Assembly: GCA_965655465.1 (NCBI GenBank)
Contig: CBFHGY010000003.1
Location: 12,354 to 76,353, forward strand
DNA: 64,000 bases
From: Bacteroidia bacterium
GTDB taxonomy: Bacteria; Bacteroidota; Bacteroidia; NS11-12g; UBA955
Direction of reading: 5' to 3'
Shown: positions 13,367 through 45,721 of the stretch, one piece after another
Position numbering within the stretch: position 1 is the first letter of the stretch
How the letters are laid out: the number at the start of each line of letters is the position of its first letter
The notes under the pieces: model-generated
The model's input: only the letters and a program-made list of their open reading frames with translations
Told to the model about the DNA's origin: nothing
Databases searched by the model: none
Translations under genes and position numbers: made by a program

Positions 13367-13385
13367 AAAATAGAATTAAACAGAT

Positions 13386-31043: not shown

Positions 31044-31652
31044 TTATGGATGGTGTTCTAAATGCAACACTTTTTCAGCCGTTTTGGCTAATTCGTCGGT
31101 ATAGAAGCACAAGCCAAAGGTGTAATACGATGCAGAGAAGTAGGTATTGGGGGTTAAGGAAAAACGCGCACCCACTCCGGCAGAAAGTCCAAAATAACGC
31201 CAAACCCGATAACTCGCACTTACCCCTGTTTCTAAGGGAAGTATCATCAGATCCCGATATTCATACGTACCATCCGCTTGTTTGAACGTAAGTGTTGCCG
31301 TGCCTACACCCAATTGCACCGTTTGTGTTAAAAACCATCTGTAATTTTTAAACCAGCGGTACTCTCCAATTCCACTGAGGTAAAAATATTCATACATATT
31401 ATCGGTTTCATCTTGAAAAAAAGTGGAATACAAACCTATATATGCCGCTGTTTTATGATAATCTGCCCCAACTCGAAGTCCGAAAATATCTATAGGCTTG
31501 CCTTTGAGATACGAACGTCGATTGTCTAAACCGCCGGTAAGCGTAGGCTTGTTTAAAAAACTCCGTTTAATGGAATCTAATGGGGCCCATTGTTGTGATT
31601 TCAGCACATGCGCACTAAAAAAGAGGGCTGTAGAAACCAACAAATGCTTCAT
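31044..31652 (-). CDS. Hypothetical secreted / outer-membrane protein (202 aa)
   Basis: Signal peptide (LVSTALFFSAHVLKSQ). It is aromatic-rich with a beta-strand pattern. Confidence 0.4.
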   Translation of the reverse strand: MKHLLVSTALFFSAHVLKSQQWAPLDSIKRSFLNKPTLTGGLDNRRSYLKGKPIDIFGLRVGADYHKTAAYIGLYSTFFQDETDNMYEYFYLSGIGEYRWFKNYRWFLTQTVQLGVGTATLTFKQADGTYEYRDLMILPLETGVSASYRVWRYFGLSAGVGARFSLTPNTYFSASYYTFGLCFYTDELAKTAEKVLHLEHHP

Positions 31653-31707
31653 TCAAAGACAAAGTTAGTTTAAAATACAAACACTACCTTTGTAGTAATT
31701 TCAAGTT

Positions 31708-32553
31708 ATGAAGCAAAATCCTTTTGTCCTTTGCCTGGTGCTCTTCACATTTGCCATTTCGAGCGTTGGCAACGTATATGCTCAAATTCGCAGAAAGCCC
31801 ATAACTCCGGATTTAAATCCACAAACTACTCCTGCTTTAAGTGCTCCAAGCAACAATACAAACTTGAACAATAACGCGCCCGTATCGATACCCCCAATCA
31901 TCATTAAACAAGAAAACGAATCGAAAGATATCGTTATTCGCAAGCCTGAAAAAGGAAGCATTACTGCTGAAGGATTGATGCAAATTAGCTTTGGAGAAGC
32001 TCCCATCATGATTAAATTTCCGGAAATAAAAGGGCGCTACTTTGCAACCAATAAACTTGCTTACAGAGGAACATTGGGCTTTACCCTTAATTCTCAAACT
32101 TTAGAATTTGTAGATAATAAACAAACCGCATCGTATGTAATCTCAAACCAGGTAATAACCGCTGGCGGGGGCGTAGAAATGCATGTGAAATCTAGCAAAC
32201 GAATATCGCCCTATTACGGCGCGGAAGGTTTGATTTTACTAAATTCCCAAAAAATTTCAGGAACTAATACCGACGATATTAAAACGTACAATTTGGGCGC
32301 GGGTTATCAACGCGATTCAACCTATACTGGAATTTATATGGGTGCCTTAGCTGGACTTGATTATTATCTTAGTTCGGATATATTTATAGGCTTTGAATTG
32401 GGTATGGGTCTGAGTTCCTACTCTACCACGCTGGTAGGTGAAAGAAAAACAATGCGCGGCGTTCTCGTAAGTGAATCTAACGTAGTAACTGGCAGAGGAA
32501 CGGGAATTGGACTTCGTTATTCCCAAGGAATTCGAATTGGCCTCAAGTTTTAA
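31708..32553 (+). CDS. Outer-membrane beta-barrel protein, hypothetical
   Basis: Signal peptide (LVLFTFAISSVGNVYAQ). C-terminal Phe (IGLKF). Confidence 0.45.
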   Translation: MKQNPFVLCLVLFTFAISSVGNVYAQIRRKPITPDLNPQTTPALSAPSNNTNLNNNAPVSIPPIIIKQENESKDIVIRKPEKGSITAEGLMQISFGEAPIMIKFPEIKGRYFATNKLAYRGTLGFTLNSQTLEFVDNKQTASYVISNQVITAGGGVEMHVKSSKRISPYYGAEGLILLNSQKISGTNTDDIKTYNLGAGYQRDSTYTGIYMGALAGLDYYLSSDIFIGFELGMGLSSYSTTLVGERKTMRGVLVSESNVVTGRGTGIGLRYSQGIRIGLKF

Positions 32554-33636
32554 TCAATTCCATAAATAGCTCAACCCGAATTCCATGTAATCGGCTTTAT
32601 TGAGATGGGCTTTTAAACGGCTGCGCGCCACCCAATGGTGACCGAGCCGGTAATCGAGTCCAAAGGCATTATAAAACCACGGTTTTTCACTATGAAAAGG
32701 CTTGACTATATACATTCCAAGGTCTAAACGCAAACCCAAACGACCGTACAAGAATACTTTTCCTCCTCGAACTGCCAACTCATAATTCTCAGACTCTCCT
32801 GCTCGGGTAAGACTTCCATCGTCGTTCCATTGGTAATTGGGATCCAAAAAGCCATCCAAGCCCACATCTACATACGAGAACTTACTTTTCTGATAACGGT
32901 AACTCAGATCCGCAATCCATACATAGGTTCTTCGAGGATATTCCAAGCTCTTTTGTCGTGTACCCATTTTAAGTCCAGCCGCAAACGGGAAGGCAAAATA
33001 CTTATGTTTGGCTTCGTAGTATTGATTTCTTTTATTATGTTTATTTAAAAGATAACTTACACCTACATTTAAATTTAATGCATTCAAGCCCACATTAGGT
33101 TTACTGTAATTACCATTAGAACAATGGGTTAAATTTGCACTCGTAAAAATGCCAAAACGTTGTACATTGAACCTCGCATTGGCCGATATCACCGCCAAAT
33201 AATTCCAATGAGAACCGATAGCATAATTTATTGGAATTTGTGTGGTATCGTATATTCGGGTTAAATATGAAAGTCCATGAGATATGCGCCAGCCCAGAGC
33301 CAAATGTTTACCTAATGGTTTCGCTGCACCAAAAGTAACCCCCGCTCCAATTTGTGTACCCGTTTGCGGCAATCCCATATCCATAATGAGAAACGTAGCA
33401 CCTAAGTACCTGGTGGCATGTTTGCGTTCTGCTAATATATTCGGTACCCGGGGTTCATGTGGAACTTCCCAATCCGCATCTATCTGAAGTCCATAAACGG
33501 GAGCCTTCAGGTCTTGTGTATACGAACTATGGGGTTGCATCGTACCAAACAAAAGTGAAGCATCGGCTCTATATTGTGCAAGGGCCGATTGCACACATAA
33601 AAGCCATAAGGAAAGCAGTTTAAATTTGCTTTTCAT
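32554..33636 (-). CDS. Outer-membrane beta-barrel protein, possibly a PagL-like acyloxyacyl hydrolase family member
   Basis: Signal peptide (LLSLWLLCVQSALAQ). The sequence is aromatic/Gly-rich with a beta-barrel pattern. It ends GLSYLWN. Confidence 0.35.
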   Translation of the reverse strand: MKSKFKLLSLWLLCVQSALAQYRADASLLFGTMQPHSSYTQDLKAPVYGLQIDADWEVPHEPRVPNILAERKHATRYLGATFLIMDMGLPQTGTQIGAGVTFGAAKPLGKHLALGWRISHGLSYLTRIYDTTQIPINYAIGSHWNYLAVISANARFNVQRFGIFTSANLTHCSNGNYSKPNVGLNALNLNVGVSYLLNKHNKRNQYYEAKHKYFAFPFAAGLKMGTRQKSLEYPRRTYVWIADLSYRYQKSKFSYVDVGLDGFLDPNYQWNDDGSLTRAGESENYELAVRGGKVFLYGRLGLRLDLGMYIVKPFHSEKPWFYNAFGLDYRLGHHWVARSRLKAHLNKADYMEFGLSYLWN

Positions 33637-34072
33637 GATTTGTTTTTACACTAAAGTAAAGGGCATAGGCCACGAAAACAATCACATACACTGGAGAAGC
33701 AATAATTTCAATAATCCGGTTATACATATCATGCAGTACGGTGTGCTCTCCTACAAACTGCCTATATAAACCGATTGACAGACAAATGAGGTCAAAAAAA
33801 GCTAAGAGCAGCCAGAATTGCAGCCTAAAATTAGGATGTAATGTTTCCCTTTTGAGAAAAAAATACCCCATAAATCCGAAGGTATATACCACGATTTCTC
33901 TGAGTGCAAATCGCACTGCATTGGTATTCCAAAAATCAGATTCTTCCTTTTGTTCGCGCACATATTCGCTGAAGAAATGATACATGACGTATAGGATCCA
34001 CATGATTAGGACCCATAATCCGAAACGGATTACTTTTCTGCGGATTTGTTCCCCCGTAAATAAATAATCCAT
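33620..34072 (-). CDS. Exosortase F system-associated membrane protein (partner of XrtF)
   Basis: It is a small multi-TM protein of 150 aa. It lies immediately downstream of, and overlaps, the XrtF-like gene. This is the conserved two-gene arrangement for XrtF. Confidence 0.5.
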   Translation of the reverse strand: MDYLFTGEQIRRKVIRFGLWVLIMWILYVMYHFFSEYVREQKEESDFWNTNAVRFALREIVVYTFGFMGYFFLKRETLHPNFRLQFWLLLAFFDLICLSIGLYRQFVGEHTVLHDMYNRIIEIIASPVYVIVFVAYALYFSVKTNHEKQI

Positions 34073-34587
34073 ATAGCAAACATGATTACGTAAACGATAA
34101 ATTGAAAAATAGTTTTATGAAATATTTGAAACCAATCGGGATGATTTTTCGCCAGAAAAAACAACGCAACAATGCGCAAGATATTGGTTATATATAAGAA
34201 GACAACCCCCCCAATAGTAAACCAGGCCTTGCGTTTCCAATTTATTCCTGGGAATATCAAAATAAATGCAGCGCACAAATAATACAATTCCCAACCGTCG
34301 CAAGCAGAACCTATTAAAATACGCCCTCGCACATCTGCAACGTTCCAGATGCAGTACCCTGTAATATTTTCGGTTGAACTGAAGGTGGTAGGCTCCGTAC
34401 CGGTAATCCAAGAAATAAGGATAGCCGAATTTTCAGCTAAACTGCGAACCAAAACATTGTGAATAAGATCGATATCCGCAACGGGAAACCAGAGAAGAAA
34501 TGCAATTACCCCGTTTCTCAAAAACGCCATTTGGGTAGGCGTAAATTGTGAAAAGAGGGAATTGATTTTGAAAATTTTCTTGATCAT
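34030..34587 (-). CDS. xrtF: Exosortase family protein XrtF
   Basis: About 185 aa, polytopic. A conserved Cys (GSACDGWELYY) and an NxxR motif (ITNILRIV) match the exosortase/archaeosortase catalytic-residue pattern. The short length is typical of XrtF. Confidence 0.6.
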   Translation of the reverse strand: MIKKIFKINSLFSQFTPTQMAFLRNGVIAFLLWFPVADIDLIHNVLVRSLAENSAILISWITGTEPTTFSSTENITGYCIWNVADVRGRILIGSACDGWELYYLCAAFILIFPGINWKRKAWFTIGGVVFLYITNILRIVALFFLAKNHPDWFQIFHKTIFQFIVYVIMFAIWIIYLRGNKSAEK

Positions 34588-34621
34588 GCCCTACAAAGAT
34601 AGGCAAAGAAAACGAGGGGAA

Positions 34622-35083
34622 TTAGCGGGGCATTTCACCAAAAAGCGCAATCAATTTTTCGAAGCGATAATCGAAAATACCTTTAACTTTTGCATCTACA
34701 AAAAGCGCGCCTGCAATGGAACCTAGAGGACCTTTACCAATATCATAGTTGAGGATATCGGTCATTTTTACTCCACCCTCAATGGCTTCAAAATGATGTT
34801 CGTGGTGCCAAATATGATAGGGCCCTTTACGTTGTTCATCTACAAAAAAGGCGTGTTCTTTTATATGGGTAATTTCGGTACACCAGTCGAGTTGAATTCC
34901 TAAGAACGGCGAAATCTTGTAGGTAATAAACATGCCTTCATACATTTTTTCGGGTATATCCGAAGTGATTTTGAAGGTCATATCTGTCGGGGTGATTTCA
35001 TTCAAGTTTTTTGGGGAGGAAAAGAAATCCCAAGCTTTTTCCAAACTGATAGGCAAGGATTGTACAGATACGAGTTTTTTCAC
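34622..35083 (-). CDS. SRPBCC (START/Bet v1-like) ligand-binding domain protein
   Basis: 153 aa. The pattern is typical of the polyketide-cyclase/SRPBCC superfamily. Confidence 0.5.
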   Translation of the reverse strand: MKKLVSVQSLPISLEKAWDFFSSPKNLNEITPTDMTFKITSDIPEKMYEGMFITYKISPFLGIQLDWCTEITHIKEHAFFVDEQRKGPYHIWHHEHHFEAIEGGVKMTDILNYDIGKGPLGSIAGALFVDAKVKGIFDYRFEKLIALFGEMPR

Positions 35084-35236
35084 TAATAACTAACAAAGGT
35101 GGTGGGGAAAGGTTTATGAAATATAATTTCAAAAGCTACATTTCATTTTCATGAATTATTATAATTCTAGTTAACAAACATGAAAATCACGCGAAGGATT
35201 AAGTATAATTTTTTCAACAACTCCTAAAAACTACCC

Positions 35237-36061
35237 TCAATCCACAATCTCCACTATCGACAACACCATCTCTGGATAAATCAATACCCCGTCATCTCCA
35301 TTTGTGCGGCGGATTTGTACCTTTATTGTTAGGCTCGAACTTGAACTATTATCATACACCCCACTAATCGGAAACAACATGGCTTCCCGAGCACCCGTTC
35401 CCGTTCCCTGAACATATAACTGCCTCTTCGCCTGTAACGTACTCGTAGTACTGCCATCGTTGATGGTTAAAATTGCCTCGTTCTCATCGTCGCTACCGGA
35501 TGTAGCTTGACCCCGTATACTCGAACGTGTATCGTAGCGAATCCACAATCTCGAACTGCTCGAAACCGGGGTATAAGAGTAACTGATTACATCGGTATAA
35601 CTCGTTGAATTAATCGTGACATTACTCGAAAAATTCAAATCACTCGCATCTAATAAAACCTGCCGCAATACCTGCCCCTTTGCCGTACCTCGAACAAAGC
35701 CGCTTGCCTTCAAATTGCCGCTTACATGTAATGCCTCCGCAGGCGTCCCTGTAATTCCAATACCTACATTTCCTCCATTGGGCTGCAACCTCAGACCATC
35801 TACATCGCTGTAATCGCCCTTATTCCTGGATTGAAGCCAAACTGCGTCTGTGGCCAACTGTAACCCAAGGTCCAAGGTAGTTGTGCCCAAGCTTCCACCG
35901 ATACGTAAAAATCCATTACCCGAACTGCCAGTATTGGATACATCCGAAGCCGCTGCTTGAATTTCAAGGGTGTTTTTAGGGGTTGTGGTACCCACTCCCA
36001 ACTGTGCCTTCAAGGAAACAGCTGTTGCGAAAATTGCAAATAATAATTCCCCTTTTTTCAT
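35237..36061 (-). CDS. Secreted protein, paralog 3 of 3, with a tail-fibre-like N-terminal motif
   Basis: Signal peptide, then QLGVGTTTPKNTLEIQ. It shares blocks with the two upstream genes (LQPNGGNVGIG, GQVLRQVLLDASDL, SYSYTPVSSSSR, LTIKVQI). Confidence 0.6.
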   Translation of the reverse strand: MKKGELLFAIFATAVSLKAQLGVGTTTPKNTLEIQAAASDVSNTGSSGNGFLRIGGSLGTTTLDLGLQLATDAVWLQSRNKGDYSDVDGLRLQPNGGNVGIGITGTPAEALHVSGNLKASGFVRGTAKGQVLRQVLLDASDLNFSSNVTINSTSYTDVISYSYTPVSSSSRLWIRYDTRSSIRGQATSGSDDENEAILTINDGSTTSTLQAKRQLYVQGTGTGAREAMLFPISGVYDNSSSSSLTIKVQIRRTNGDDGVLIYPEMVLSIVEIVD

Positions 36062-36846
36062 CTTGCCACCTCCGTAATCGTTAATAACATATCGGGTTCA
36101 AGGGTAAAAGTATCGTCAATGCCTAATTCCTGAACGTCGATTTTAATTGTGAGCGTGCTGGTACCCGAATTGATATATACTCCGCTAATAGGTAACAATG
36201 AAGTGGCGCGACCTCCGCCTCCACTTGCATTGTCGAAATACGACTGACGGGTTTGGATGGTCGTACTTCCTACCAATAAATAGGAATACCAATCGTCGTT
36301 ACCAGATCCTCCTATGCTATATTTCCCGTTGAAGGCCACAAAAATCTTACTGTTTGAAGATACCGGAGTATAATTATATGATACTATGGTAGATCTTGCA
36401 TTTGCAACCTGTGTATTTCCCGATTTTGACAAATCCGATTCATTGAGCACCACGGTATTCAAAACTTGACCCGCTTGAGCGGCCTTTACGCTTCCGGATA
36501 GATATATATCGCCGTTTACGGTAAGTATTTCACTGCCTTCGCTCCCATTTATGGCTACTTTTCCGCCATTGGGATTTAATAAAAGTGGGTTTGAATTGGA
36601 GTAATTTGAGGCATCACGAGCTTGGATCCATGCATTCGTAGTACCGTTAACACCCGCATCCCCAGCGGCATTCGACCCCGTTTTTTGAATGCGCATCACC
36701 CCATTGGCTGCACTTCCCGATCCCGCAGCTGCTGCAGACACCCCAACAACATCCAAATTATTCACCGGAGCATTCGTTCCAATACCGGTTTGCGCGAGTA
36801 CCGGCAGCACCGTTAATCCACAAACCAAGAATATCATGTTTTTCAT
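36058..36846 (-). CDS. Secreted protein, paralog 2 of 3, with a tail-fibre-like N-terminal motif
   Basis: Signal peptide, then QTGIGTNAPVNNLDV. It shares blocks LLNPNGGKVAING, AGQVLNTVVLNESDL, SYNYTPVSSNSK and LTIKIDV. It overlaps its neighbours by 4 nt. Confidence 0.6.
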   Translation of the reverse strand: MKNMIFLVCGLTVLPVLAQTGIGTNAPVNNLDVVGVSAAAAGSGSAANGVMRIQKTGSNAAGDAGVNGTTNAWIQARDASNYSNSNPLLLNPNGGKVAINGSEGSEILTVNGDIYLSGSVKAAQAGQVLNTVVLNESDLSKSGNTQVANARSTIVSYNYTPVSSNSKIFVAFNGKYSIGGSGNDDWYSYLLVGSTTIQTRQSYFDNASGGGGRATSLLPISGVYINSGTSTLTIKIDVQELGIDDTFTLEPDMLLTITEVAR

Positions 36847-37643
36847 CGTGCGATCTCCTTAATAATTAACGTAGCGTCTGGATAAACGATTAAATTGTCA
36901 TCGGTACTGGTACGATAAGCCGAAACACGAATTGTCAAAGCATTTGTGCCGCTATTTTGATAGTATCCCATTAGAGGAAAGGGCGGATTTCCGCGACCAC
37001 CGCCTCCGCCACTACTCCCCCCATCAAATCGCATGGCATTTGCTTGAACACGCGTTCCCCCAATAGTCAAAAACGTTTCTACAATATCGGAAGCACTACC
37101 ACTTAAAAAAGCCCGCCCGTCGTATTCAACATAAATTTTAGAACTGCTCGAAACGGGAGTGTAGGTATAGGAAACCAAGGTCGTTTCAGAAGTGCCACTT
37201 ACGGTAATGCTGGAACCGAAGTTTAAGTCCGACTCGTCTAAAAATACCATATTAAGAATCTGTCCGGCACCCGCTGCTATCACACTGCCGTTGACCTGAA
37301 CGTTGCCTTGAACCGTTAATTTTTCATCGGGGGAAGTATTACCTACCCCTACGTTTCCGCCATTGGGATTCAACAGCAAGGGCATATTGGAAGTATAATT
37401 GGTGGCATTTCGCGCTTGTAACCATCCATAATTGTCTTTGCTCAAGCCAAAATCTAAAACTCCGTTGGCATTGGTACTCCCCAAACGCAGCACTCCATTT
37501 TGGGAACTTCCCGATTTAGCGGCAGCGGCAGTATCGCCAATTATATCAAAAGCATTTACGGGGGAAGTGGTATTCACACCGACCTGAGCAGATAAGACCG
37601 AACCTCCGACCAAGAGCGCAAATAATGAAACGAATTTCAACAT
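36843..37643 (-). CDS. Secreted protein, paralog 1 of 3, with a tail-fibre-like N-terminal motif
   Basis: Signal peptide, then QVGVNTTSPVNAFDI. It shares blocks LLNPNGGNVGVG, AGQILNMVFLDESDL, SYTYTPVSSSSK and LTIRVSA. Confidence 0.6.
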   Translation of the reverse strand: MLKFVSLFALLVGGSVLSAQVGVNTTSPVNAFDIIGDTAAAAKSGSSQNGVLRLGSTNANGVLDFGLSKDNYGWLQARNATNYTSNMPLLLNPNGGNVGVGNTSPDEKLTVQGNVQVNGSVIAAGAGQILNMVFLDESDLNFGSSITVSGTSETTLVSYTYTPVSSSSKIYVEYDGRAFLSGSASDIVETFLTIGGTRVQANAMRFDGGSSGGGGGRGNPPFPLMGYYQNSGTNALTIRVSAYRTSTDDNLIVYPDATLIIKEIAR

Positions 37644-37829
37644 ATTATAACAAGAGTGTGAAGCGACTCAAAAATATACTGAAAATGCCCTAATTCGGCA
37701 GATTTACATCCACAAAAGGCTAAAAAAAACAAAAAAGTACACATAAGAACACGAAGTCATTTCGATTCGGCACCTTTAATAGGCCCGTACATGAACCATT
37801 TATAACGTACCGTTTGGCACCTGTATGCA

Positions 37830-38441
37830 TTATTTAACCCGAACGGTATTCAACTGTTCCATTACGACCTTTTGCCAATTATTCTCATCGGGCACGTATT
37901 CCCAATTCAATTCAGCAATATAACGATCCATAAACAAGATGATACGTCGGGCGGTAAAACGGTTTTTCTTTACCGTATTCAGCAACTGATTGTCGGACCG
38001 GGTAAATTTATAACTGAACTGCAATCCGCGGTATCCCATTACTTCAACAATCTCGGGCATTCCCAATTCTACTTGTTGATGCTTAGATGGATCCAAACCC
38101 TGTCGTTGTTTATTCCGGGTATCCATGGCAAAGTTCCGAACATAGGGGGTAAGTGTATCTTGTTTTAAATCTAAAAGAAATTTAGCATGGGCTTTTTCAC
38201 TCCAAGGATAACTGCGAATTGGTTGAATCCAAAGTACCACATGGGTAAATTGGGGATCGAAGCCCCCGCCTTTATACCCTTTTTGTCGGAAGCAATAGCC
38301 GGGTTGATTATTCATTTCCTCGGCGGAGACCCATTCTAATTTCGGGTGTGTTTCTTTAATAATAAACTCGGGGTATTGGGCTTTTAAAACAGAACTCACA
38401 ATAACAAATCCGCAAAGTAAAAAGGGGCCTAATCGTTTCAT
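37830..38441 (-). CDS. Hypothetical secreted protein (203 aa)
   Basis: Signal peptide (FLLCGFVIVSSVLKAQ). No recognisable motif. Confidence 0.45.
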   Translation of the reverse strand: MKRLGPFLLCGFVIVSSVLKAQYPEFIIKETHPKLEWVSAEEMNNQPGYCFRQKGYKGGGFDPQFTHVVLWIQPIRSYPWSEKAHAKFLLDLKQDTLTPYVRNFAMDTRNKQRQGLDPSKHQQVELGMPEIVEVMGYRGLQFSYKFTRSDNQLLNTVKKNRFTARRIILFMDRYIAELNWEYVPDENNWQKVVMEQLNTVRVK

Positions 38442-38547
38442 ACAAAATGCAAAGGTAAATCAATCTTAAGACCTTTTAATAAGGCGTGAAAAGTTCCAAG
38501 TGTCTCCTACTTAAGCTGTATATTGCAGCGTTAAAGGGTAGAATTAA

Positions 38548-39651
38548 ATGAATTCGGAAATTTTTAAAAATATCAATAAAATCATAGAGCGAGACAATAA
38601 AACCTCGACCTATAAATTCGCGCTGTTGCGCGGAGTGATTGATATTATCCAAAGCAATTCTCCATATATAAAAATCGAAGGGGAACGGGCTATTTTACCC
38701 ATGGGTTTGCTTATTGAGAATTGGATACTGTATTACTATCCCATCTTAGCAAATAAAATCCCACAGATTTATGGGAAAAATACCCAACTTCAATTCGAGA
38801 CTCATTTAAGTGAAGTAATTGAATTCTATGCAAAAAAAGGAGGGATGTCTGCCTTCTATCGAGATATGCGCAATAATGGCATTGCCGATATCCAAGATAT
38901 TTTCACTCCCTTGGTTAAATCAATGCGAAAGACTATCGCTACTATGCCCATGAAATACATTGGCAAATCGATCTACAATGAAGAATATGCCATTTTCAAG
39001 CCCAATAGCGACACCTATAAAACAACTAAAATATACGACACCCACAGTTTGCTTAACTATTCCGGCACGTTTAGCATTCCACTTGATTATTATGAAGCGT
39101 TTAAACTCTTAGGAAGTTTTATTTCCGGACAAAACACATTATTGTTCAAGTGGGCAGAGTTTTCATACGAAGCATCTGGAAGATCCATTCAAAAAGAAAC
39201 CGTTTTCGAACAAATGACCGAGTATGCCGTGGTAGACCGAAATATCACCGCAACAAAGCGCATTTATAGTGAATTATTGGAACGTCAGAAAAAGATCTTT
39301 TGTGTATGGACCGGTGAAAAAACAAGTTCATTTGATATCGATCATATGCTGCCATTTTCTGTTTGGAAAAATAACGATTTATGGAATCTGCTTCCAGCAA
39401 AAACATCGGTTAATCGTGAAAAAAGTGACAAAATCCCTACCCCTGAATTAATCCATAAAAGACAAGACATTATTTTCGAATACTGGGATCTTCTAAAGAA
39501 TAGTTTTGAATTTCGATTCGAAAAAGAAATTGAATTCGCCCTTATTGGAGATAAGCAGAATAATTGGAAAGATGCAGCAATTTCGCAAATTCAAAATAAC
39601 TGCGAATACCTTATCGAATCGCGCGGATATACCCCATGGAGTCCTAAATAG
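38548..39651 (+). CDS. Protein with a C-terminal HNH-type nuclease motif and an uncharacterised N-terminal domain of about 270 aa
   Basis: C-terminal CVWTGEKTSSFDIDHMLPFSVWKNNDLWNLLPAKTSVNREKSDK matches the HNH pattern (C..G...D.DH..P.S...N..N.LLP...N..K). The N-terminal region (KTSTYKFALLRGVIDII...) has no motif I can assign. Confidence 0.6.
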   Translation: MNSEIFKNINKIIERDNKTSTYKFALLRGVIDIIQSNSPYIKIEGERAILPMGLLIENWILYYYPILANKIPQIYGKNTQLQFETHLSEVIEFYAKKGGMSAFYRDMRNNGIADIQDIFTPLVKSMRKTIATMPMKYIGKSIYNEEYAIFKPNSDTYKTTKIYDTHSLLNYSGTFSIPLDYYEAFKLLGSFISGQNTLLFKWAEFSYEASGRSIQKETVFEQMTEYAVVDRNITATKRIYSELLERQKKIFCVWTGEKTSSFDIDHMLPFSVWKNNDLWNLLPAKTSVNREKSDKIPTPELIHKRQDIIFEYWDLLKNSFEFRFEKEIEFALIGDKQNNWKDAAISQIQNNCEYLIESRGYTPWSPK

Positions 39652-39659
39652 TCCAATAT

Positions 39660-40781
39660 TTAAATAAAACAGGCATTACAACCCTCGCCCTCGTTATCGA
39701 GTACAATATCCTTCCATGATTCCTTTTTAATAAGCTTCTCCCTCTGCGTGCGCTTGTAATGATCTCTCTTAATTTGAGCTACACGTTCTGGCCTAGATAA
39801 ATCCTCCAATCGCTCTTCGCTCCAGGAATAACCATCCTTTTCATAATCCATAGCTGTAGCAAATAATTCCGGATGTGTCTCTAAAAGCCATACCCACTCA
39901 ATTTTCTGCTGATAAAAACAGAAAAAGCAACCACTGCGACTTCTAGAATATGTTCCTTTTACTATTTCACCGTCTAATTCTACCTCGTATTCCAAAGGCG
40001 TGTAATACGCCGGAATTCCCACCCCACTTTCTTCTAATATCCTGTAAATATCGTCAATACCAAAATTCGAATCCTTATAAATCAAAGGAAAATCTTCCAA
40101 TTTTCCCACCGGATAATCTGTCGTTTTCAAAAAGTCAAATACTACTTTATTAAAAGCCACCACATCAATATCCAACAAATCCGATACCTTTTGTTTTTGA
40201 CCGTATCGCATGGATATCGGCTGCTCTAAATAATACAATACCGCATTTAACTTATCGCCCTCAACATGACTTTTATAACTCTCTATCAAAGAGGAAATCC
40301 GGCTATTGGCGAATGTTTTAGTAATTACATCTTCGCTCCAAATATTTCGACGAAATGGGAAAATGCTCTGAATATTCTCCTTTTTAGAAATATATCCCTC
40401 TCTGTCTTCATCTCCTCGTATGCCCACATAAGAAATGGTAGGATTCATTCCTATCTCTTTCTCGAATGGATCTAATTTCATCTTCTTTGTGCACCACCTC
40501 GATGTAGAAGAGGGCAAATACCCTCCGTAAACAGCCAAAAAATGATCGAAGGAAGAAGACTCCGACGTTGCAAATACATCTACCGACTTATACTCCGTTA
40601 TATTCTTTCCCAATACTGAATTTAAACGCTCAATCAAATCATAGGTTTCTTTGAGCTCCTTACCGGTATCACAGGTATAATAATTGATATTTAAAGCCGG
40701 AAAATTCTGACTCATGTAAATAGCCAAAGCCGCACTATCTTTCCCTCCTGAAATCCCTAAAACATGATTGATCGTATTCAT
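39660..40781 (-). CDS. Phosphoadenosine phosphosulfate (PAPS) reductase family PP-loop ATP pyrophosphatase with a C-terminal Cys cluster
   Basis: PP-loop motif LGISGGKDSAALAIYM and an RWCTKKMKLDP block typical of the PAPS reductase family. The C-terminus has CFFC ... CNAC (two CxxC). 373 aa. Confidence 0.65.
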   Translation of the reverse strand: MNTINHVLGISGGKDSAALAIYMSQNFPALNINYYTCDTGKELKETYDLIERLNSVLGKNITEYKSVDVFATSESSSFDHFLAVYGGYLPSSTSRWCTKKMKLDPFEKEIGMNPTISYVGIRGDEDREGYISKKENIQSIFPFRRNIWSEDVITKTFANSRISSLIESYKSHVEGDKLNAVLYYLEQPISMRYGQKQKVSDLLDIDVVAFNKVVFDFLKTTDYPVGKLEDFPLIYKDSNFGIDDIYRILEESGVGIPAYYTPLEYEVELDGEIVKGTYSRSRSGCFFCFYQQKIEWVWLLETHPELFATAMDYEKDGYSWSEERLEDLSRPERVAQIKRDHYKRTQREKLIKKESWKDIVLDNEGEGCNACFI

Positions 40782-40836
40782 AGTCCCCCAGCAAGAATAA
40801 TCGAGCCAACTGGATTAAACAATGTCCAAATAAAAA

Positions 40837-41262
40837 ATGAATGTATTTTTGCTTAAATCATTTCAAACCACAATCTTGAATCAACAAAATAACAATACAT
40901 GCCTCTTTTGCTACACAGATCGCGAAATACTCATTGAGAATGAGCTTGCCTTTGCGATTTTCGATAAATTTCCTGTTGTGGAAGGACATATTTTGATTAT
41001 TCCCAAAAGACACTTCGACAATTATTTTGAAATAACGCAAGCCGAACTAGAAGCGAACCATGCGATTATCCTTGAATTAAAACAACAATTACAAGAAAAA
41101 GACGCAAGTATTTCGGGGTTCAACATAGGAATAAACCAAGGCATCGATGCGGGTCAAACGGTTATGCATTGCCACATACATTTAATTCCCCGTCGATTGG
41201 GTGATGTTGCCGAACCACGCGGTGGCATCCGGCATTTAATACCAGGGAAGGGGTTTTATTGA
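40837..41262 (+). CDS. HIT (histidine triad) family nucleotide hydrolase/transferase
   Basis: Histidine triad HCHIHLIP. CxxC-like N-terminal zinc motif (CLFC). 141 aa. It is divergent from the PAPS-reductase-like gene across a 55-bp spacer. Confidence 0.75.
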   Translation: MNVFLLKSFQTTILNQQNNNTCLFCYTDREILIENELAFAIFDKFPVVEGHILIIPKRHFDNYFEITQAELEANHAIILELKQQLQEKDASISGFNIGINQGIDAGQTVMHCHIHLIPRRLGDVAEPRGGIRHLIPGKGFY

Positions 41263-41301
41263 GGGCTTGGACTTTCCAAAATTACCAACTTTCCCCTCAC
41301 G

Positions 41302-41616
41302 CTAAAGCCCATACCGCAGCCACTCGTAACCAGTCCGTGTCCACACGCGGAGGAGCTCCCGCTCTTGTTCGCTGAAATCCCCGTTGTTGAATCCTTCTAA
41401 ATCTGTAATGTCCATGTTAAAATCCCCCAATTCATCGATTTCCCAAGAAACCCAATCCGGATTTACATGTAATGTTCCTACACAGGGAAAGGACTTTCCC
41501 GCACGAATTAAATTTCCCATAATACAACGTTGCCCTCCATTACCCCCACGTATTTTTACAGGAGGTTTGGGAGGAGACACCTGTTTTTTGATACGTTTAG
41601 TAGTACTCACTTTCAT
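41302..41616 (-). CDS. Hypothetical small protein (104 aa). Strand assignment is uncertain, because an overlapping 103-aa ORF exists on the + strand at 41384..41695.
   Basis: ORF only. It has a basic N-terminus (KRIKKQVSPPKPPVKIRGGNGGQR). No assignable motif. Confidence 0.25.
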   Translation of the reverse strand: MKVSTTKRIKKQVSPPKPPVKIRGGNGGQRCIMGNLIRAGKSFPCVGTLHVNPDWVSWEIDELGDFNMDITDLEGFNNGDFSEQERELLRVWTRTGYEWLRYGL

Positions 41617-41901
41617 AATCCAATGGCAAAATCAATATGTGCAAAATAACCCCCGTTCCCCTATTCTTTCGGTTTTTTTAAATTCTCAAGAATAAAAAAA
41701 AACAACTCTTTTGGTAAATCCCAAACAAATCTGCTATTCAATAGCCGATTTATCTAGAACCTAAAACTTTTTAAATTGGATTCTTGGCAAGCCTATCGTT
41801 ATATATAGCTACTCGTTGCACAATACCCAGATTTGGAATGATTGCGTGCTAAGGGCCTTGTATACAAATAGAGAGCAAACTTAAATTCGTAAGTAAAAGT
41901 T

Positions 41902-42252
41902 TTATGTTCTGTCGTGTATAAACACCCACGTATTTCCCTCCAAAATTATGAAATGTGCAAGGGTTACCACACATTCGTGCTCTTCGATCATGGGTGATTT
42001 TCCAAAACGAGATTCAAATTCACGGTGAAGTGCCACCATACATACATTTTGAGCATTCACTCCAAAAGGTCCGGAGCGCAAATTTTTATTATACGTTTCC
42101 ACCAATTCCTCATTGGAATGAGTTTTCAGGGATTCGGCGAAATCGGCGAAAAGTTGTAGGTTATCGCCGTAAAGCGATGCGATGAAGGTTCGGATTTTCT
42201 GAGGACCTCTGCCTGAGTTTCCGATTTGTGGTTGAGAATGATTGTGATTCAT
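41902..42252 (-). CDS. Hypothetical small protein (116 aa)
   Basis: ORF only. It has the same orientation as the adjacent tRNA. Confidence 0.3.
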   Translation of the reverse strand: MNHNHSQPQIGNSGRGPQKIRTFIASLYGDNLQLFADFAESLKTHSNEELVETYNKNLRSGPFGVNAQNVCMVALHREFESRFGKSPMIEEHECVVTLAHFIILEGNTWVFIHDRT

Positions 42253-42518
42253 AGTGCTTTGTTTTTGACTTTAAGTCCCCATCATTTTGCCACCGTGGTA
42301 AGCTACCCGGTTGGAGCGAAGCCGAAGCGCCGCGTCTTGATGTACTGCAAATATAAAATCAAGTTATGACAATTTTAAAAAAGACATTCTCGAAATACTC
42401 CATTTCATCCATTCATGAATATATTTAGTCTAAAACCTGGATAGATCGCGTATAAAAAAATGCCAAGGTGAATTGTTAAGTGATCAAAAAAATTAAGTTA
42501 AATTACGGGGAGCAAAAA

Positions 42519-42543: not shown

Positions 42544-42619
42544 TGGTGGTATCGGACGGAATCGAACCGCCGACACAAGGATTTTCAGTCCTTTGCTCTA
42601 CCGACTGAGCTACGATACC
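42544..42619 (-). tRNA. tRNA-Phe (anticodon GAA), 76 nt with an encoded CCA
   Basis: The minus-strand sequence folds as a cloverleaf: GGTATCGTAGCTCAGTCGGTAGAGCAAAGGACTGAAAATCCTTGTGTCGGCGGTTCGATTCCGTCCGATACCACCA. It has an acceptor stem GGTATCG/CGATACC and a GTTCGATTC T-arm. The anticodon loop is CTGAAAA with GAA at positions 34-36. Confidence 0.9.
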
Positions 42620-42877: not shown

Positions 42878-45718
42878 ATGAAAGCATTAAACATCAAAAA
42901 GTACTTATTAATCGGAATGATTTTAGGACTTGGATGGAACTTTAATTTATATGCACAAACGATTACCAGCGTATCGTTACAAGGAGCTAAGCCTACAGGA
43001 ACCAATACATGGGATGTTGATTACATAAATGGAGCAAATTCTATTATTGAAAAAGAAGTTTCCATAGGTTATTCGAATCATACGAATAATGGAAATGGTA
43101 ATGGAAAAGATTATTTTTATTACACACAATCAGGAACAAGCCTTTGTTGGGAAGTATTACAAGGAGGTTCAGGCTCAAACTCATGGAAAACATTGCCATT
43201 TTGTGAATCAGCCAATGGTGGATTAAACAATGATCCGACACAAGGAACACATATAACTTATTTCCGGTATAACTCTGGTAAAACTGGTTGTGCTACCACA
43301 GGTACTTTCACAGAAACGTTGTCCATTGGATGGTCAACAGTAAGCGGAAGTTCTTGCTCTGGATTTAAAACGGGTACCACACCGTTAGAATTAGAGGTAA
43401 CTGTACAGGTTGTAACCGACAATCTTTACACTTGGTCAGAACCAACATCGGGAACAGACAGCTCGTATAAAATTGCTGGCAACTGGACCCCTACTCGAAC
43501 CTCTCCTAGTACAGACGATATTTTAGTTGTAGACTTAGCACAAGGTTCCAATCGAAACACGACGATTTACATGGACGGTGTATCTGATCAAATAAATCAA
43601 TTTAAAATATTTCCGAATAATTATGTCACCTTTAAATGCTCTACCAGCACCAACACGGGTAATTGGACCACAGGGAATGTCACATCTTCTGACGGCGACG
43701 ATTTTGTTTTAGATTCCCTAGCTGGGATGCGCTTTGACGCAGGAACACTTAACTTGAATATACCCTCAGGCAATACGGCTATGTTCAAGTCTGACCTTAA
43801 CGTGGCTGGAGGCACCTTAAATATTAATGGACCTGGATCCATCACCCACAGAAAAAACATCAACACAACAGGTGGAGCATTGAATTACAAATCTTCAGCT
43901 ACCACTACGCTTAATCTAGCTGGTAAAGACACCAAACTATCGGGTACCGGGGGTTCATTGTATATCGATTCCACCGTAAATGTGGTTATTGGAAACGGCG
44001 CGACATCGAGCTACACGCTTGAAAGAATACTTCCTATAATTTCTAATCTTTCACTTAAATCGGGTACAACCCTATATTCTAATGCTCCTACTTCTTACAC
44101 ATCGGTAAGTGCTATTAATGCATGGACGCCCTTTTTACAATTAAAGGCAACCCCTAAACCTAACTCTACAGCCCACGGTCAAATTGTAGAGATATTGGGG
44201 AATGCCACTATCGATGGTGGCGCACAATTTGAGATTTATAACAACAAACAACGTGCTTACAGAGCTTTTGGTATTCCTTTAAAAAATGGAACACTAATTC
44301 CACAATTTACAGATGATATTGTCGTAACCGGTACCGTTACTGGAAGCAATGCCAATGATTTCACTACCACCTGTTCCTACTGCACGCATTCCATGTTCCA
44401 GTGGAACGAAAGCACCAGTTCATGGACGCCATATGCTTCAGGCAATGATCTCACGAATATTCCTTTGGGAACTGGAATCCTTACCTTCTTCAGAGGTGCT
44501 ATTGGAAACGGATTGGGTGATACATCCGCATCAGCTAACGAACAAATCATCGACTTTAAAGGTGAACTTACCGTAGGGAGGCCCAGTATTGTACTCAACA
44601 ACGGTGGAACTGGAGCCTTAAAAGGCTATAATTTAATAGGCAACCCCTACCCCTCTGCCATTGACTTACGATTAGTTTATGAATCTAATAAGTCCAAAAT
44701 TTTACCCAGATTCTATTTCTACGATGCCATTGCCCGCAGATACAACGAGTGGGATAGTGTAACAAGCAACGGAAATTCTACGACGCCCAAGAAAAACGGA
44801 ACTACCAAATTCCAAAATCCTGGAAATAGTGTAAAAAAAGAAGCCCGAATATTAGATGCCGGTGGAGCCGTATTCGTTGTGGTAAGCTCCAATAACGCCA
44901 CAGAAACCATAACCTTCAACGAGTCACATAAAGAGCGTAGCTTACGCTCAGCAACCAAACATTTTTCAAGCGGTGTTCAAGAAGAAAATACCGTACCATG
45001 CAACGAATTGAAAGGAATGTTGCAATACCAAAAAACCGACTCCTTTCCTGAAAACGATGGTTTTACCCTAGAATTTGATATCGAAGATGGCAATCCCAAA
45101 GGCGATATCATGGATATGAATAAGTTGTATGCAGGATACTTAGGACTAGGTACCTTAACTTCTAACGACTATTGGTTATCTATAGACCGCCGCAATAAAA
45201 TTGCAGAAATTGGAGAAACCAAATCTATTCCTTTAAAGGTAGCCTATCCCAAGGAAAGTCCTGCAGCCGTGGAATTGGTGTTTCAAACTTGCGATGAGAC
45301 TAACAAATCTTACGATATTCAATTATTCGATAAATTAACTCAAAAGGCCCATCCCGTGAATAACGGCAGTGTATATCCATTTACAGCTCAAACCGCTGAA
45401 GAGAAAAAACCGGATCGCTTTGAATTGCTCTTTACCGGTATTGAAAAACAGAATAATATTTCAAGTCAACACGTAAATCCCATCGCTGTTTTCCCAAATC
45501 CTTCAGAAAATGGTGTGTTTTATGTTCTTAACAAAGAACAAAACACAAAAACAGCTTACGAAGTATTCGAACTGAATGGTCAAGTTATCACCAAAGGCAC
45601 CTTGGAGTCTAGCAATCAAGTAAATACCATAAATCTAAGCGATGCTCCCAAAGGCATCTATATAATCAAATTCACTTCAAACAATCAAACTTCAACTCAA
45701 AAAGTACAACTTTATTAA
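42878..45718 (+). CDS. Large secreted T9SS cargo protein (946 aa), tandem paralog A
   Basis: Signal peptide (LLIGMILGLGWNFNLYAQ). The passenger region is Thr/Ser/Gly/Asn-rich. The C-terminal Por sorting domain is FPNPSENGVFYV...KGIYIIKFTSNNQTSTQKVQLY. Confidence 0.7.
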   Translation: MKALNIKKYLLIGMILGLGWNFNLYAQTITSVSLQGAKPTGTNTWDVDYINGANSIIEKEVSIGYSNHTNNGNGNGKDYFYYTQSGTSLCWEVLQGGSGSNSWKTLPFCESANGGLNNDPTQGTHITYFRYNSGKTGCATTGTFTETLSIGWSTVSGSSCSGFKTGTTPLELEVTVQVVTDNLYTWSEPTSGTDSSYKIAGNWTPTRTSPSTDDILVVDLAQGSNRNTTIYMDGVSDQINQFKIFPNNYVTFKCSTSTNTGNWTTGNVTSSDGDDFVLDSLAGMRFDAGTLNLNIPSGNTAMFKSDLNVAGGTLNINGPGSITHRKNINTTGGALNYKSSATTTLNLAGKDTKLSGTGGSLYIDSTVNVVIGNGATSSYTLERILPIISNLSLKSGTTLYSNAPTSYTSVSAINAWTPFLQLKATPKPNSTAHGQIVEILGNATIDGGAQFEIYNNKQRAYRAFGIPLKNGTLIPQFTDDIVVTGTVTGSNANDFTTTCSYCTHSMFQWNESTSSWTPYASGNDLTNIPLGTGILTFFRGAIGNGLGDTSASANEQIIDFKGELTVGRPSIVLNNGGTGALKGYNLIGNPYPSAIDLRLVYESNKSKILPRFYFYDAIARRYNEWDSVTSNGNSTTPKKNGTTKFQNPGNSVKKEARILDAGGAVFVVVSSNNATETITFNESHKERSLRSATKHFSSGVQEENTVPCNELKGMLQYQKTDSFPENDGFTLEFDIEDGNPKGDIMDMNKLYAGYLGLGTLTSNDYWLSIDRRNKIAEIGETKSIPLKVAYPKESPAAVELVFQTCDETNKSYDIQLFDKLTQKAHPVNNGSVYPFTAQTAEEKKPDRFELLFTGIEKQNNISSQHVNPIAVFPNPSENGVFYVLNKEQNTKTAYEVFELNGQVITKGTLESSNQVNTINLSDAPKGIYIIKFTSNNQTSTQKVQLY

Positions 45719-45721
45719 TAA

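What the first reader, a model, noticed from the sequence alone, without database searches (positions are those of the whole stretch)
38548..40781. Convergent pair of an HNH-nuclease-domain protein and a PAPS-reductase-family PP-loop ATPase with a Cys cluster: candidate undescribed nucleic-acid modification/restriction module
The 373-aa protein has the SGGKDS PP-loop and the RWCTKK block of the PAPS reductase family. This is the same enzyme family as DndC/SspD of DNA phosphorothioation systems and the ATP pyrophosphatases of 7-deazaguanine pathways. It also has two C-terminal CxxC pairs (CFFC, CNAC) that could ligate an Fe-S cluster as in APS reductases/DndC. Its stop lies 8 bp from the stop of a 367-aa protein whose C-terminus is a clean HNH motif (DIDHMLPFS...NLLPA...N..K). 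The N-terminal 270 aa of that protein match nothing I can name. A PP-loop adenylating enzyme next to an HNH nuclease in an island context suggests a compact modification plus nuclease system, or a modification-sensing nuclease. The canonical partners (cysteine desulfurase, SMC-like ATPase, DndB/DndE) are absent, so it is not a standard Dnd/Ssp/Dpd cluster.
Basis: partly seen in the sequence, partly recalled or inferred. Interest (0 to 1): 0.8.

Follow-up and report, generated by a model that had tools for sequence, protein, structure and literature searches.

The report
Orphan sspD inside HNH–HIT nuclease cassette
The flagged gene pair is not a conserved two-gene module: a known DNA-sulfur-modification gene (sspD) that has lost its neighbouring partner genes sits wedged between the two genes of a widespread, unnamed nuclease-plus-nucleotide-hydrolase cassette, and that cassette is repeatedly found tangled up with broken sulfur-modification operons.

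Summary
Both ORFs and every quoted motif are real. The interpretation needs revision.

- **The PP-loop protein is a bona fide SspD** (PADLOC SspD, E 2e-83). It keeps all 111 residues that are invariant in operon-encoded SspDs. A sister-lineage contig carries a 91%-identical sspD at the same chromosomal site, inside a complete sspB-sspC-sspD operon followed by DUF262 and DndB-like genes. In the window sspB and sspC are missing.
- **The HNH protein's real partner is the third gene, HIT (40837-41262).** HNH followed by HIT or methyltransferase-HIT occurs in 62 of 75 informative genomes. HNH next to sspD occurs only in the window's close clade and in two other loci.
- **sspD lies, inverted, in what is a ~70-bp HNH-HIT spacer in the nearest relatives.**
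- **All three genes are under strong purifying selection** (dN/dS 0.02-0.10).
- **The cassette is tied to ssp loci.** 17 of 80 cassettes abut ssp remnants. No fetched locus shows sspB, sspC and sspD all intact beside the cassette.

Verdict: a composite of a known Ssp remnant and an undescribed, probably modification-sensing, HNH-HIT cassette. Moderate interest.

The parts
38548..39651 (+). wHTH(SBD-like)-HNH nuclease, 367 aa; first gene of the HNH-HIT cassette
   Evidence: ORF. Pfam HNH_4 at aa 260-297. The HNH domain is Cas9-type by PDB profile search. The family has 1321 hits, about 369 aa each, mostly Bacteroidota. Catalytic D265, H266, N280 and N289 are invariant. dN/dS is 0.07 against L088.
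38548..39297 (+). N-terminal domain (aa 1-250) of the HNH protein: helical/winged-helix module, possible phosphorothioate reader
39660..40781 (-). sspD: PP-loop ATP pyrophosphatase of the SspABCD phosphorothioation system, here without neighbouring sspB/sspC
   Evidence: PADLOC SspD E 2.3e-83. Pfam PAPS_reduct. It keeps 111 of 111 columns invariant in 16 operon-type SspDs, including the PP-loop, C97, C285/C288 and C368/C371. dN/dS is 0.02-0.03. It is 91% identical to the sspD of a complete operon at the same site (L091).
40837..41262 (+). HIT (Hint/Fhit-like) nucleotide hydrolase, 141 aa; second gene of the HNH-HIT cassette, separated from HNH here by the inverted sspD
   Evidence: Pfam HIT E 6e-22. 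The HCHIHLIP triad and an N-terminal CLFC motif are in the sequence. Closest solved relatives are Hint/Fhit/Ap4A enzymes. A homologue lies directly downstream of HNH in 62 of 75 genome loci. dN/dS is 0.10.
41302..41616 (-). 104-aa ORF of unknown function, conserved next to HIT in the nearest sspD-less relative
   Evidence: ORF. No family hit. A homologue (65% identity) lies directly after HIT in L008. It is absent from L088.
42544..42619 (-). tRNA-Phe next to a block of variable gene content (about 35100-41950)
   Evidence: ARAGORN. Synteny with sister contig L088 holds for 29002-35097 and 41948-42343. Gene content between those stretches differs, except for the HNH-sspD-HIT block.

Best explanation
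The locus is a composite of two units, not one two-gene module.

**(1) sspD.** This is the intact ATP-pyrophosphatase/sulfur-insertion enzyme of an SspABCD single-strand DNA phosphorothioation (PT) system. A sister lineage still has the full operon at this chromosomal site: sspB-sspC-sspD followed by DUF262 and DndB-like genes. In the window's lineage sspB, sspC and the downstream genes are gone. In characterised systems the SspB nickase and the SspC ATPase are required. So this sspD cannot write PT with its neighbours alone, and any activity depends on unlinked partners. This last step is inferred.

**(2) HNH plus HIT.** These two genes form a separate, widespread, so far unnamed cassette found mainly in Bacteroidota. 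A winged-helix N-domain is fused to a Cas9-type HNH nuclease. This gene is normally followed directly by a HIT or methyltransferase-HIT nucleotide hydrolase, often with overlapping reading frames.

My best reading is that the cassette is a modification-sensing nuclease module, most likely one that reads PT DNA. It would be of the same functional kind as the SBD-HNH type IV enzymes or SspE. The HIT partner would dispose of or process nucleotide products. Under this reading the cassette's presence goes with erosion of the PT writer genes next to it.

Shown: gene identities, the cassette pairing, the rearrangement history, and purifying selection. Inferred: PT sensing, the role of HIT, and the incompatibility logic.
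For: **Identity of sspD:**

**Same-site sister operon.** L091 reads PeptC92>sspB>sspC>sspD>DUF262>DndB-like, with flanks homologous to L088. L088 carries the same HNH> <sspD HIT> trio as the window.

**The cassette**
- HIT or MTase-HIT lies directly downstream of HNH in 62 of 75 genome loci: 45 MTase-HIT and 17 HIT only.
- The nearest sspD-less relatives (HNH 63-77% identical) have HNH, a ~70-bp spacer, then HIT.
- The trio is restricted to the clade with HNH at least 88% identical.

**Link to ssp**
- 17 of 80 cassettes adjoin ssp parts, always in the same geometry: sspB(-sspC) upstream on the same strand, or sspD downstream.
- They form a nested series. sspC is kept to aa 1035, 556, 468, 441 or 76. 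sspB survives as 5' stubs of 19-131 codons ending at the HNH start.
- The proteins are true SspB, SspC and PbeA by PADLOC.
- Two different Ssp clades are involved: the L070/L027 type, and the L091 type with SspB only 36% identical to it.
- No fetched locus shows intact sspB, sspC and sspD together with the cassette.

**Reader domain**
- Window motifs 22-YKFALL-27 and 63-YYPILA-68 parallel ScoMcrA 116-HRPVLL-121 and 164-YPFWAL-169. The ScoMcrA residues are taken from PMC6224610. K23 is invariant, and Y62, Y63 and P65 are at least 90% conserved.

**Conflict-system context**
- No relatives were found in phage collections.
- Distant relatives are MTase-Ndom-HNH and MTase-Ndom-HNH-Peptidase_S24 fusions.
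- In a Hymenobacter plasmid a gene annotated as a nucleoside triphosphate pyrophosphohydrolase replaces HIT.

**Selection:** dN/dS is 0.07 for HNH, 0.02 for sspD and 0.10 for HIT, with pS 0.46-0.73.
Against: - I could not superpose the structures to check that K23 and Y64-P65 line a cavity.
- 63 of 80 cassettes show no ssp trace within 10 kb, so the cassette clearly works without a neighbouring writer.
- A 'remnant' model does not explain why the orphan sspD is so well kept. It retains 111 of 111 invariant residues. Its rate is not accelerated relative to the operon copy (9 versus 5 unique changes).
- It also does not explain how sspD came to lie inside the HNH-HIT spacer.
- Only 64 kb of the genome is visible, so sspA, sspB and sspC may exist elsewhere.
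- No experimental data exist for this HNH family in the literature I could search.
Confidence: 0.55

Rival explanations
1. The three genes are a functional minimal modification-restriction unit. The winged-helix HNH protein would replace SspB as the site-recognising nickase. SspD would adenylate the backbone and insert sulfur, or a related group, using housekeeping IscS. HIT would resolve or proof-read adenylylated DNA intermediates, replacing SspC-dependent steps.
For: - The trio is conserved as one block (83% nt identity) in lineages whose synonymous sites are near saturation, with all three genes under strong purifying selection.
- The orphan sspD keeps every invariant residue and shows no rate acceleration.
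- Two unrelated loci have a tight co-directional HNH-MTaseHIT-sspD operon without sspC: L043 with gaps of 4 bp or less, and L143.
- HIT enzymes work through nucleotidyl-enzyme intermediates (established knowledge of the family).
Against: - sspD is absent from all but one (L043) of the 80 fetched genome loci that encode the HNH protein.
- 51 of 54 sspD loci have sspC directly upstream, and only 2 of 80 have any HIT.
- The sspD of L043 has lost 12 of the 111 invariant positions, against 0-5 in operon copies, so it looks relaxed there.
- The HNH of L143 is divergent and possibly split into two ORFs.
- In the window, sspD is inverted between HNH and HIT, which breaks the usual HNH-HIT gene overlap.
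Confidence: 0.12
2. This is a chance neighbourhood in a variable island beside a tRNA gene. HNH-HIT would be a generic nuclease-based defence or selfish cassette with no connection to phosphorothioation. sspD would work with unlinked sspA, sspB and sspC genes. The association with ssp loci would reflect only shared residence in defence islands.
For: - 63 of 80 cassettes have no ssp gene nearby.
- Neighbours are hypervariable and defence-like: CBASS, PDC-M11A, RecQ, integrases, AAA_15.
- Gene content between the conserved flanks differs between the window and L088, and tRNA-Phe lies next to the block.
- Foldseek gives no SBD signal.
Against: - 21% of cassettes adjoin ssp parts. The geometry is fixed, the genes are interleaved rather than merely adjacent, and two different Ssp clades are involved. 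This is hard to get by chance. By my own rough estimate, well under 1% would be expected for a random gene.
- sspBCD genes are normally contiguous (51 of 54), so an unlinked sspBC would be unusual.
Confidence: 0.25
3. HNH-HIT is a homing-type mobile element that targets ssp operons. The HNH enzyme would cut a site between sspC and sspD, and the cassette would be copied into the break, with collateral deletions.
For: - The insertion position is constant relative to ssp genes: downstream of sspB/sspC and upstream of sspD.
- One end is fixed at the HNH start while the deletion end-points on the other side vary.
- The cassette is patchily distributed across Bacteroidota at about 50% identity.
Against: - No repeats, integrase or transposase travel with the cassette.
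- It is absent from phage and viral collections.
- The 250-aa N-domain and the HIT partner are strongly conserved, which is unlike free-standing homing endonuclease genes.
- Most copies are nowhere near ssp genes.
- The variable-length sspB 5' stubs are explained equally well by deletions that preserve the operon promoter.
Confidence: 0.07
4. The PP-loop protein is an assimilatory PAPS/APS reductase (CysH) or another sulfur-metabolism enzyme.
For: It has a Pfam PAPS_reduct domain.
Against: - NCBIfam cysH scores 12.9 bits against a cut-off of 165, and PRK02090 16.8 against 154.
- The PADLOC SspD model matches at 278 bits.
- Relatives sit in sspB-sspC-sspD operons, not sulfate-assimilation clusters.
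Confidence: 0.01

Closest known systems
SspABCD(-SspE/SspFGH) single-strand DNA phosphorothioation systems (Xiong et al. 2020; PMC8092258)
   Same: The 373-aa protein is an SspD by full-length profile, by invariant residues and by orthology to an sspD inside a complete operon at the same site.
   Different: sspB and sspC are absent next to it, and sspA, sspB and sspC are absent from the whole 64-kb window. sspD lies inverted between two unrelated genes. No SspE, SspFGH or PbeA is present.
SBD-HNH type IV phosphorothioate-dependent restriction endonucleases (ScoMcrA, SprMcrA, Hga; PMC6224610)
   Different: There is no sequence-level homology and Foldseek is not significant. There is no SRA domain. 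The HNH domain is of the Cas9 (HNH_4) type. The N-domain is about 250 aa and has additional helices. It has an obligate-looking HIT or MTase-HIT partner that the McrA-type enzymes lack.
SspE (DUF262 + DUF1524), the PT-sensing nickase encoded downstream of sspBCD
   Same: It would be a nuclease effector encoded inside or beside ssp operons that can persist without the writer genes. The sister contig has a DUF262 protein in the position where the window has the HNH gene.
   Different: The domains are unrelated. There is no NTPase domain. The HNH protein is never found downstream of an intact sspBCD in the loci examined.
DndC / BrxP (PAPS-reductase enzymes of Dnd and BREX type 4 PT systems)
   Same: They share the PP-loop superfamily and a Cys-rich C-terminal region (PMC12839542).
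   Different: Matches are only partial and weak: DndC E 1e-4, BrxP E 4e-8, TIGR03183 12 bits against a cut-off of 290. There is no DUF4007 fusion.
Hint/Fhit branch of the HIT superfamily
   Same: The histidine triad HxHxHxx is present, along with an N-terminal CxxC motif. The closest solved structures are Hint, Fhit and Ap4A enzymes.
   Different: This HIT is encoded as the immediately downstream, often overlapping partner of a nuclease. In 45 of 62 cases it is fused to a class I SAM methyltransferase domain. Its substrate is unknown.

Membership tests
SspD (protein family) | PP-loop SGGxDS ATP-pyrophosphatase motif within a PAPS_reduct domain | tested here: met
   S11-GGKDS-16 is in the translation. 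Pfam PF01507 matches aa 6-128, E 3e-8.
SspD (protein family) | Full-length match to an SspD profile, better than to DndC, BrxP or CysH | tested here: met
   PADLOC SspD PDLC02782 scores 278 bits, E 2.3e-83. BrxP scores 30 bits and DndC 19 bits. cysH scores 12.9 bits.
SspD (protein family) | Conserved cysteines (Cys of RWCTKK plus two C-terminal CxxC pairs) and other invariant residues | tested here: met
   111 of 111 columns invariant in 16 operon-type SspDs are kept. C97, C285, C288, C368 and C371 are invariant in all 20 sequences.
SspABCD phosphorothioation system (complete system) | sspB (DUF4007) and sspC (BrxC-like ATPase) immediately upstream of sspD in one operon | tested here: not met
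   tblastn with SspB and SspC from two loci (L004, L005) finds nothing in the 64-kb window. HIT lies upstream, divergent. In related loci 51 of 54 have sspC directly upstream.
SspABCD phosphorothioation system (complete system) | Cysteine desulfurase SspA (or housekeeping IscS) available | tested here: inconclusive
   No SspA homologue is in the window at E 1e-5. However, sspA is often unlinked or replaced by IscS (PMC8092258), and the rest of the genome is not visible.
SspABCD phosphorothioation system (complete system) | Single-strand 5'-CpsCA-3' PT modification in genomic DNA | not testable with these tools
   This needs LC-MS/MS of PT dinucleotides or PT-specific sequencing.
SBD-HNH PT-dependent type IV restriction enzymes | Sulfur-binding domain fold | tested here: inconclusive
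SBD-HNH PT-dependent type IV restriction enzymes | Sulfur cavity residues (H116, R/K117, Y164, P165 of ScoMcrA) | tested here: inconclusive
   Candidate equivalents are Y22-K23 and Y64-P65. K23 is invariant and P65 is at least 90% conserved. The spacing is similar, at 42 against 48 residues. No structural superposition was possible, so equivalence is inferred only.
SBD-HNH PT-dependent type IV restriction enzymes | PT-dependent DNA binding and cleavage; restriction of PT-modified DNA | not testable with these tools
   This needs EMSA, cleavage and transformation assays.
HNH_4 (Cas9-type) nuclease domain | D-H...N...N catalytic core matching PF13395 and Cas9 HNH | tested here: met
   Pfam HNH_4 E 1e-8. 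A profile search of the PDB hits only Cas9 HNH domains, E 3.5e-8. D265, H266, N280 and N289 are invariant.
HIT superfamily | Histidine triad HxHxHxx in a HIT domain | tested here: met
   HCHIHLIP is in the sequence. Pfam HIT E 6e-22. PDB Hint/Fhit hits reach E 8e-16.
Assimilatory PAPS/APS reductase (CysH) | Score above the curated CysH cut-off, and a sulfate-assimilation gene context | tested here: not met
   TIGR00434 scores 12.9 against 165.1 and PRK02090 16.8 against 154. No cys genes lie nearby. Relatives sit in ssp operons.
DndC | Match to TIGR03183 / PADLOC DndC over the full length | tested here: not met
   TIGR03183 scores 12.4 bits against 290.4. PADLOC DndC gives E 1e-4 over aa 5-110 only.
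SspB / DUF4007 (as the identity of the HNH N-domain) | Profile similarity of HNH aa 1-250 to DUF4007 | tested here: not met

The most novel reading that the evidence does not exclude
The HNH-sspD-HIT trio would be a self-sufficient, three-gene backbone-modification and restriction unit. A winged-helix HNH protein would take over SspB's site recognition and nicking. SspD would insert sulfur. The HIT enzyme would handle the adenylylated DNA intermediate. This would be a minimal phosphorothioation machinery that needs neither SspB nor SspC.

A weaker variant of the same idea: the HNH-(MTase)HIT cassette is a new, widespread family of phosphorothioate-reading nucleases with a nucleotide-sanitising partner. 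It would supply part of the 'missing' restriction partners of the 84% of sspBCD systems that lack SspE or SspFGH (PMC8092258).
Probability: 0.12. Interest if true: 0.8.

Novelty: new variant of a known kind. Interest (0 to 1): 0.45.

Why it matters
Phosphorothioation is the only known natural DNA backbone modification. Most sspBCD systems have no known restriction partner (PMC8092258).

The survey turned up an unnamed HNH-HIT cassette in at least 582 species-representative genomes and about 1300 protein clusters. It is not in PADLOC v2, Pfam (N-domain) or the papers I could search. It is physically interleaved with ssp operons in about a fifth of cases, and its reader domain most resembles sulfur-binding domains.

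If the cassette reads PT DNA, it adds a new reader/effector family.

The intact, strongly constrained orphan sspD raises a second question. Does SspD have a function outside the canonical four-protein machine? Published neighbourhood screens would have missed such cases, because they required a P-loop NTPase next to sspD (PMC12914056).

If none of this holds, the locus is just a decaying Ssp island next to an ordinary nuclease gene.

Tried and rejected
1. **CysH or DndC identity of the PP-loop protein.** Rejected by the profile scores.
2. **DUF3440/IbrA, SRA or EVE domains.** No Pfam hit at E 0.1 or better in either protein.
3. **HNH N-domain as DUF4007/SspB.** Rejected.
4. **HNH and sspD as a conserved pair.** Rejected. 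sspD occurs in 1 of 80 HNH genome loci. HNH occurs in 1 of 80 sspD metagenome loci.
5. **sspD as a decaying pseudogene.** Rejected.
6. **Phage origin or phage-borne homing element.** No relatives in IMG/VR or INPHARED.
7. **Integration repeats flanking the block next to tRNA-Phe.** Only short chance repeats were found. Promoter and terminator scans were at background level.
8. **First full-length AlphaFold model.** It used 15 sequences and reached pLDDT 73, giving only weak winged-helix hits. It was superseded by the N-domain model.
9. **The afdb50 fold library.** It was not available.
10. **Sequence search of the MTase domain against the PDB.** No hit, so there is no clue to its substrate.
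11. **Literature searches for an HNH-HIT or orphan-sspD description.** Nothing was found.
Full report
**Observation.** One is 38548-39651 (+), 367 aa. The other is 39660-40781 (-), 373 aa. Their stop codons are 8 bp apart. All quoted motifs are present: SGGKDS, RWCTKK, CFFC, CNAC, and the D-H...N...N HNH block. Pfam gives HNH_4 (aa 260-297) and PAPS_reduct (aa 6-128). Nothing in Pfam, NCBIfam or PADLOC matches the first ~250 aa of the HNH protein. A third gene belongs to the story. It is a 141-aa HIT hydrolase at 40837-41262 (+), divergent from the PP-loop gene and 55 bp away. tRNA-Phe lies at 42544-42619.

**The PP-loop protein is SspD.**
- It matches the PADLOC SspD model over its full length (278 bits, E 2e-83). 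It matches DndC, BrxP and CysH only marginally.
- Its family is very large, with at least 7990 hits, typically 375 aa and 66-70% identical.
- In four genomes the homologue is the third gene of DUF4007(sspB)-sspC-sspD operons. A cysteine desulfurase and SNF2/HATPase modules lie nearby.
- Among 80 metagenomic relatives, 51 of the 54 with enough upstream sequence have sspC immediately upstream.
- The window's protein keeps all 111 alignment columns that are invariant in 16 operon-type SspDs. These include the PP-loop, C97 and both CxxC pairs. So the 'Cys cluster' is a family trait. This agrees with the Cys-rich C-terminal region described for SspD and BrxP in PMC12839542.
- tblastn with SspA, SspB and SspC finds none of them in the 64-kb window.

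**The HNH protein's partner is HIT, not SspD.**
- The HNH family has 1321 hits of about 369 aa, roughly 52% identical, mostly Bacteroidota, and is annotated only as 'HNH endonuclease domain-containing protein'.
- I fetched 80 genome loci out of at least 582 matching stretches. In 62 of the 75 with enough downstream sequence, a HIT gene follows directly on the same strand. The reading frames often overlap (for example L002 and L043).
- 45 of these are class I methyltransferase-HIT fusions of 288 aa, and 17 are HIT only.
- De novo clustering of all neighbours found no other family in more than 16 loci.
- sspD occurs in only one of the 80 loci, L043.
- Distant relatives of the N-domain are MTase-Ndom-HNH fusions (~580 aa) and MTase-Ndom-HNH-Peptidase_S24 fusions (~770 aa).
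- On a Hymenobacter plasmid the downstream partner is annotated as a nucleoside triphosphate pyrophosphohydrolase instead of HIT.
- No relatives exist in IMG/VR or GenBank phages.

**History of this locus.**
- A related metagenome contig, L088 (with L089, L090, L172 and L173), carries the same HNH> <sspD HIT> block. It is 83% identical in nucleotides to window 38542-41260. It lies between flanks syntenic with the window, while the other genes between the conserved flanks differ.
- A third contig, L091, has an sspD that is 91% identical in protein. It shares the flanking Peptidase_C92 and SocA-like genes with L088.
- At that site L091 carries a complete sspB-sspC-sspD operon, then a DUF262 (GmrSD_N) gene and a DndB-like gene. 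It has no HNH or HIT gene.
- Relatives whose HNH is 63-77% identical (L174, L175, L008) have HNH, a ~70-80-bp spacer, then HIT, with no sspD. L008 also has a homologue of the window's 104-aa ORF.
- So sspD came to lie, inverted, inside the HNH-HIT spacer only in the clade with HNH at least 88% identical.
- I cannot say whether the ssp operon was inserted into the cassette and then trimmed, or whether the operon's flanks were replaced.
- All three genes are under strong purifying selection between the window and L088. dN/dS is 0.07 for HNH, 0.02 for sspD and 0.10 for HIT, with synonymous differences of 0.46-0.73 per site.
- The orphan sspD has not sped up relative to the operon copy.

**The cassette is entangled with ssp loci elsewhere.**
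- Seventeen of the 80 genome loci, plus L002 and L003, carry ssp parts next to the cassette. The geometry is always the same.
- In some loci sspB, with or without sspC, lies upstream on the same strand. sspC is full-length (1035 aa) in L027. Only its N-terminal 556, 468, 441 or 76 residues survive in L054, L044, L025 and L039.
- In ten loci only a 5' stub of sspB, 19-80 codons long, lies just upstream of the HNH start.
- In L043, and in the metagenome locus L143, sspD follows MTase-HIT directly.
- The proteins are genuine SspB, SspC and PbeA by PADLOC.
- The Ssp clade involved (L070/L027 type) differs from the one at the window's site. The SspB of L091 is only 36% identical to that of L070. 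The association therefore arose at least twice.
- No fetched locus shows sspB, sspC and sspD all intact together with the cassette.

**What the HNH protein looks like.**
- The HNH domain is of the Cas9 type, and its catalytic residues are invariant.
- A first full-length model was mediocre (pLDDT 73).
- A model of aa 1-250 built from 66 diverse sequences reached pLDDT 92.
- Foldseek finds nothing significant, and there is no sequence-level match.
- Two conserved motifs, 22-YKFALL-27 and 63-YYPILA-68, resemble the SBD cavity motifs HRPVLL and YPFWAL described in PMC6224610. I could not verify structural equivalence.
- The N-domain is not DUF4007-like.

**Interpretation.** The flagged pair is a composite. 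One part is a known enzyme, sspD, orphaned from its operon. The other part is one half of an undescribed HNH-HIT cassette.

My best-supported mechanism for the cassette is a modification-sensing nuclease, probably PT-sensing, with a nucleotide-hydrolase partner. That would also explain why it is found beside eroded rather than intact PT writer genes. This is inference from weak structural similarity plus genomic association.

The strongest unexplained facts are the tight conservation of the orphan sspD and its position inside the cassette. They keep alive a more novel reading: a minimal HNH-SspD-HIT modification unit, at about 12% probability. A plain chance neighbourhood remains possible at about 25%.

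**Literature.** I found no paper describing this cassette or orphan sspD genes. One published sspD neighbourhood screen required an adjacent P-loop NTPase, and would have excluded such loci.

Noticed in passing
window 35237-37643 (- strand): Three tandem paralogous genes (274, 262 and 266 aa) with signal-peptide-like N-termini and a shared internal 25-nt repeat spaced about 790 bp apart. They fill the variable stretch where sister contig L088 has a SocA/Panacea-domain gene instead.
   Followed up: partly
window 42878-48478 (+ strand): Two adjacent large paralogous proteins (946 and 918 aa) with similar N- and C-terminal regions, just beyond tRNA-Phe. No family search was run on them.
   Followed up: no
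L002 5261-10001 (also L003, L039, L051): A four-gene block lies between an sspB 5' fragment and the HNH gene: AAA_18, a 362-aa protein, HNH_5, and a 500-aa PIN/EVE-like protein that matches PADLOC candidate PDC-M11A at E 8e-213. It looks like a second cassette inserted into the same eroded ssp operon.
   Followed up: partly
proteins P0337, P0354: Distant relatives fuse a class I methyltransferase, the same N-domain, HNH and a C-terminal LexA/UmuD-type Peptidase_S24 domain in one ~770-aa protein. This hints that the nuclease can be placed under RecA/SOS-type autoproteolytic control.
   Followed up: no
L177 (Hymenobacter plasmid NZ_CP095057.1) 7980-9467: In this distant relative the gene after HNH is annotated as a nucleoside triphosphate pyrophosphohydrolase rather than HIT. 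In cyanobacterial and Deinococcus plasmids a conserved ~80-aa ORF precedes HNH. So the partner is variable, and in some relatives it is again a nucleotide hydrolase.
   Followed up: partly
L043 11986-13092: The sspD that follows HNH-MTaseHIT in this Prolixibacteraceae MAG has lost 12 of the 111 positions invariant in operon SspDs. Operon copies lose 0-5 in leave-one-out controls. This suggests relaxed constraint there, unlike in the window.
   Followed up: yes
L001/L028 (Mucilaginibacter aquatilis) 12148-14681: A CBASS-like pair (SMODS/AGS-C cyclase plus an HNH-SAVED effector) lies 1 kb downstream of a HIT-less copy of the HNH gene. This fits a defence-island setting.
   Followed up: no
window 41302-41616 (- strand): A 104-aa ORF with no family match has a 65%-identical homologue directly after HIT in L008. 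It is absent from L088, so it may be an accessory gene of this sub-lineage of the cassette.
   Followed up: partly
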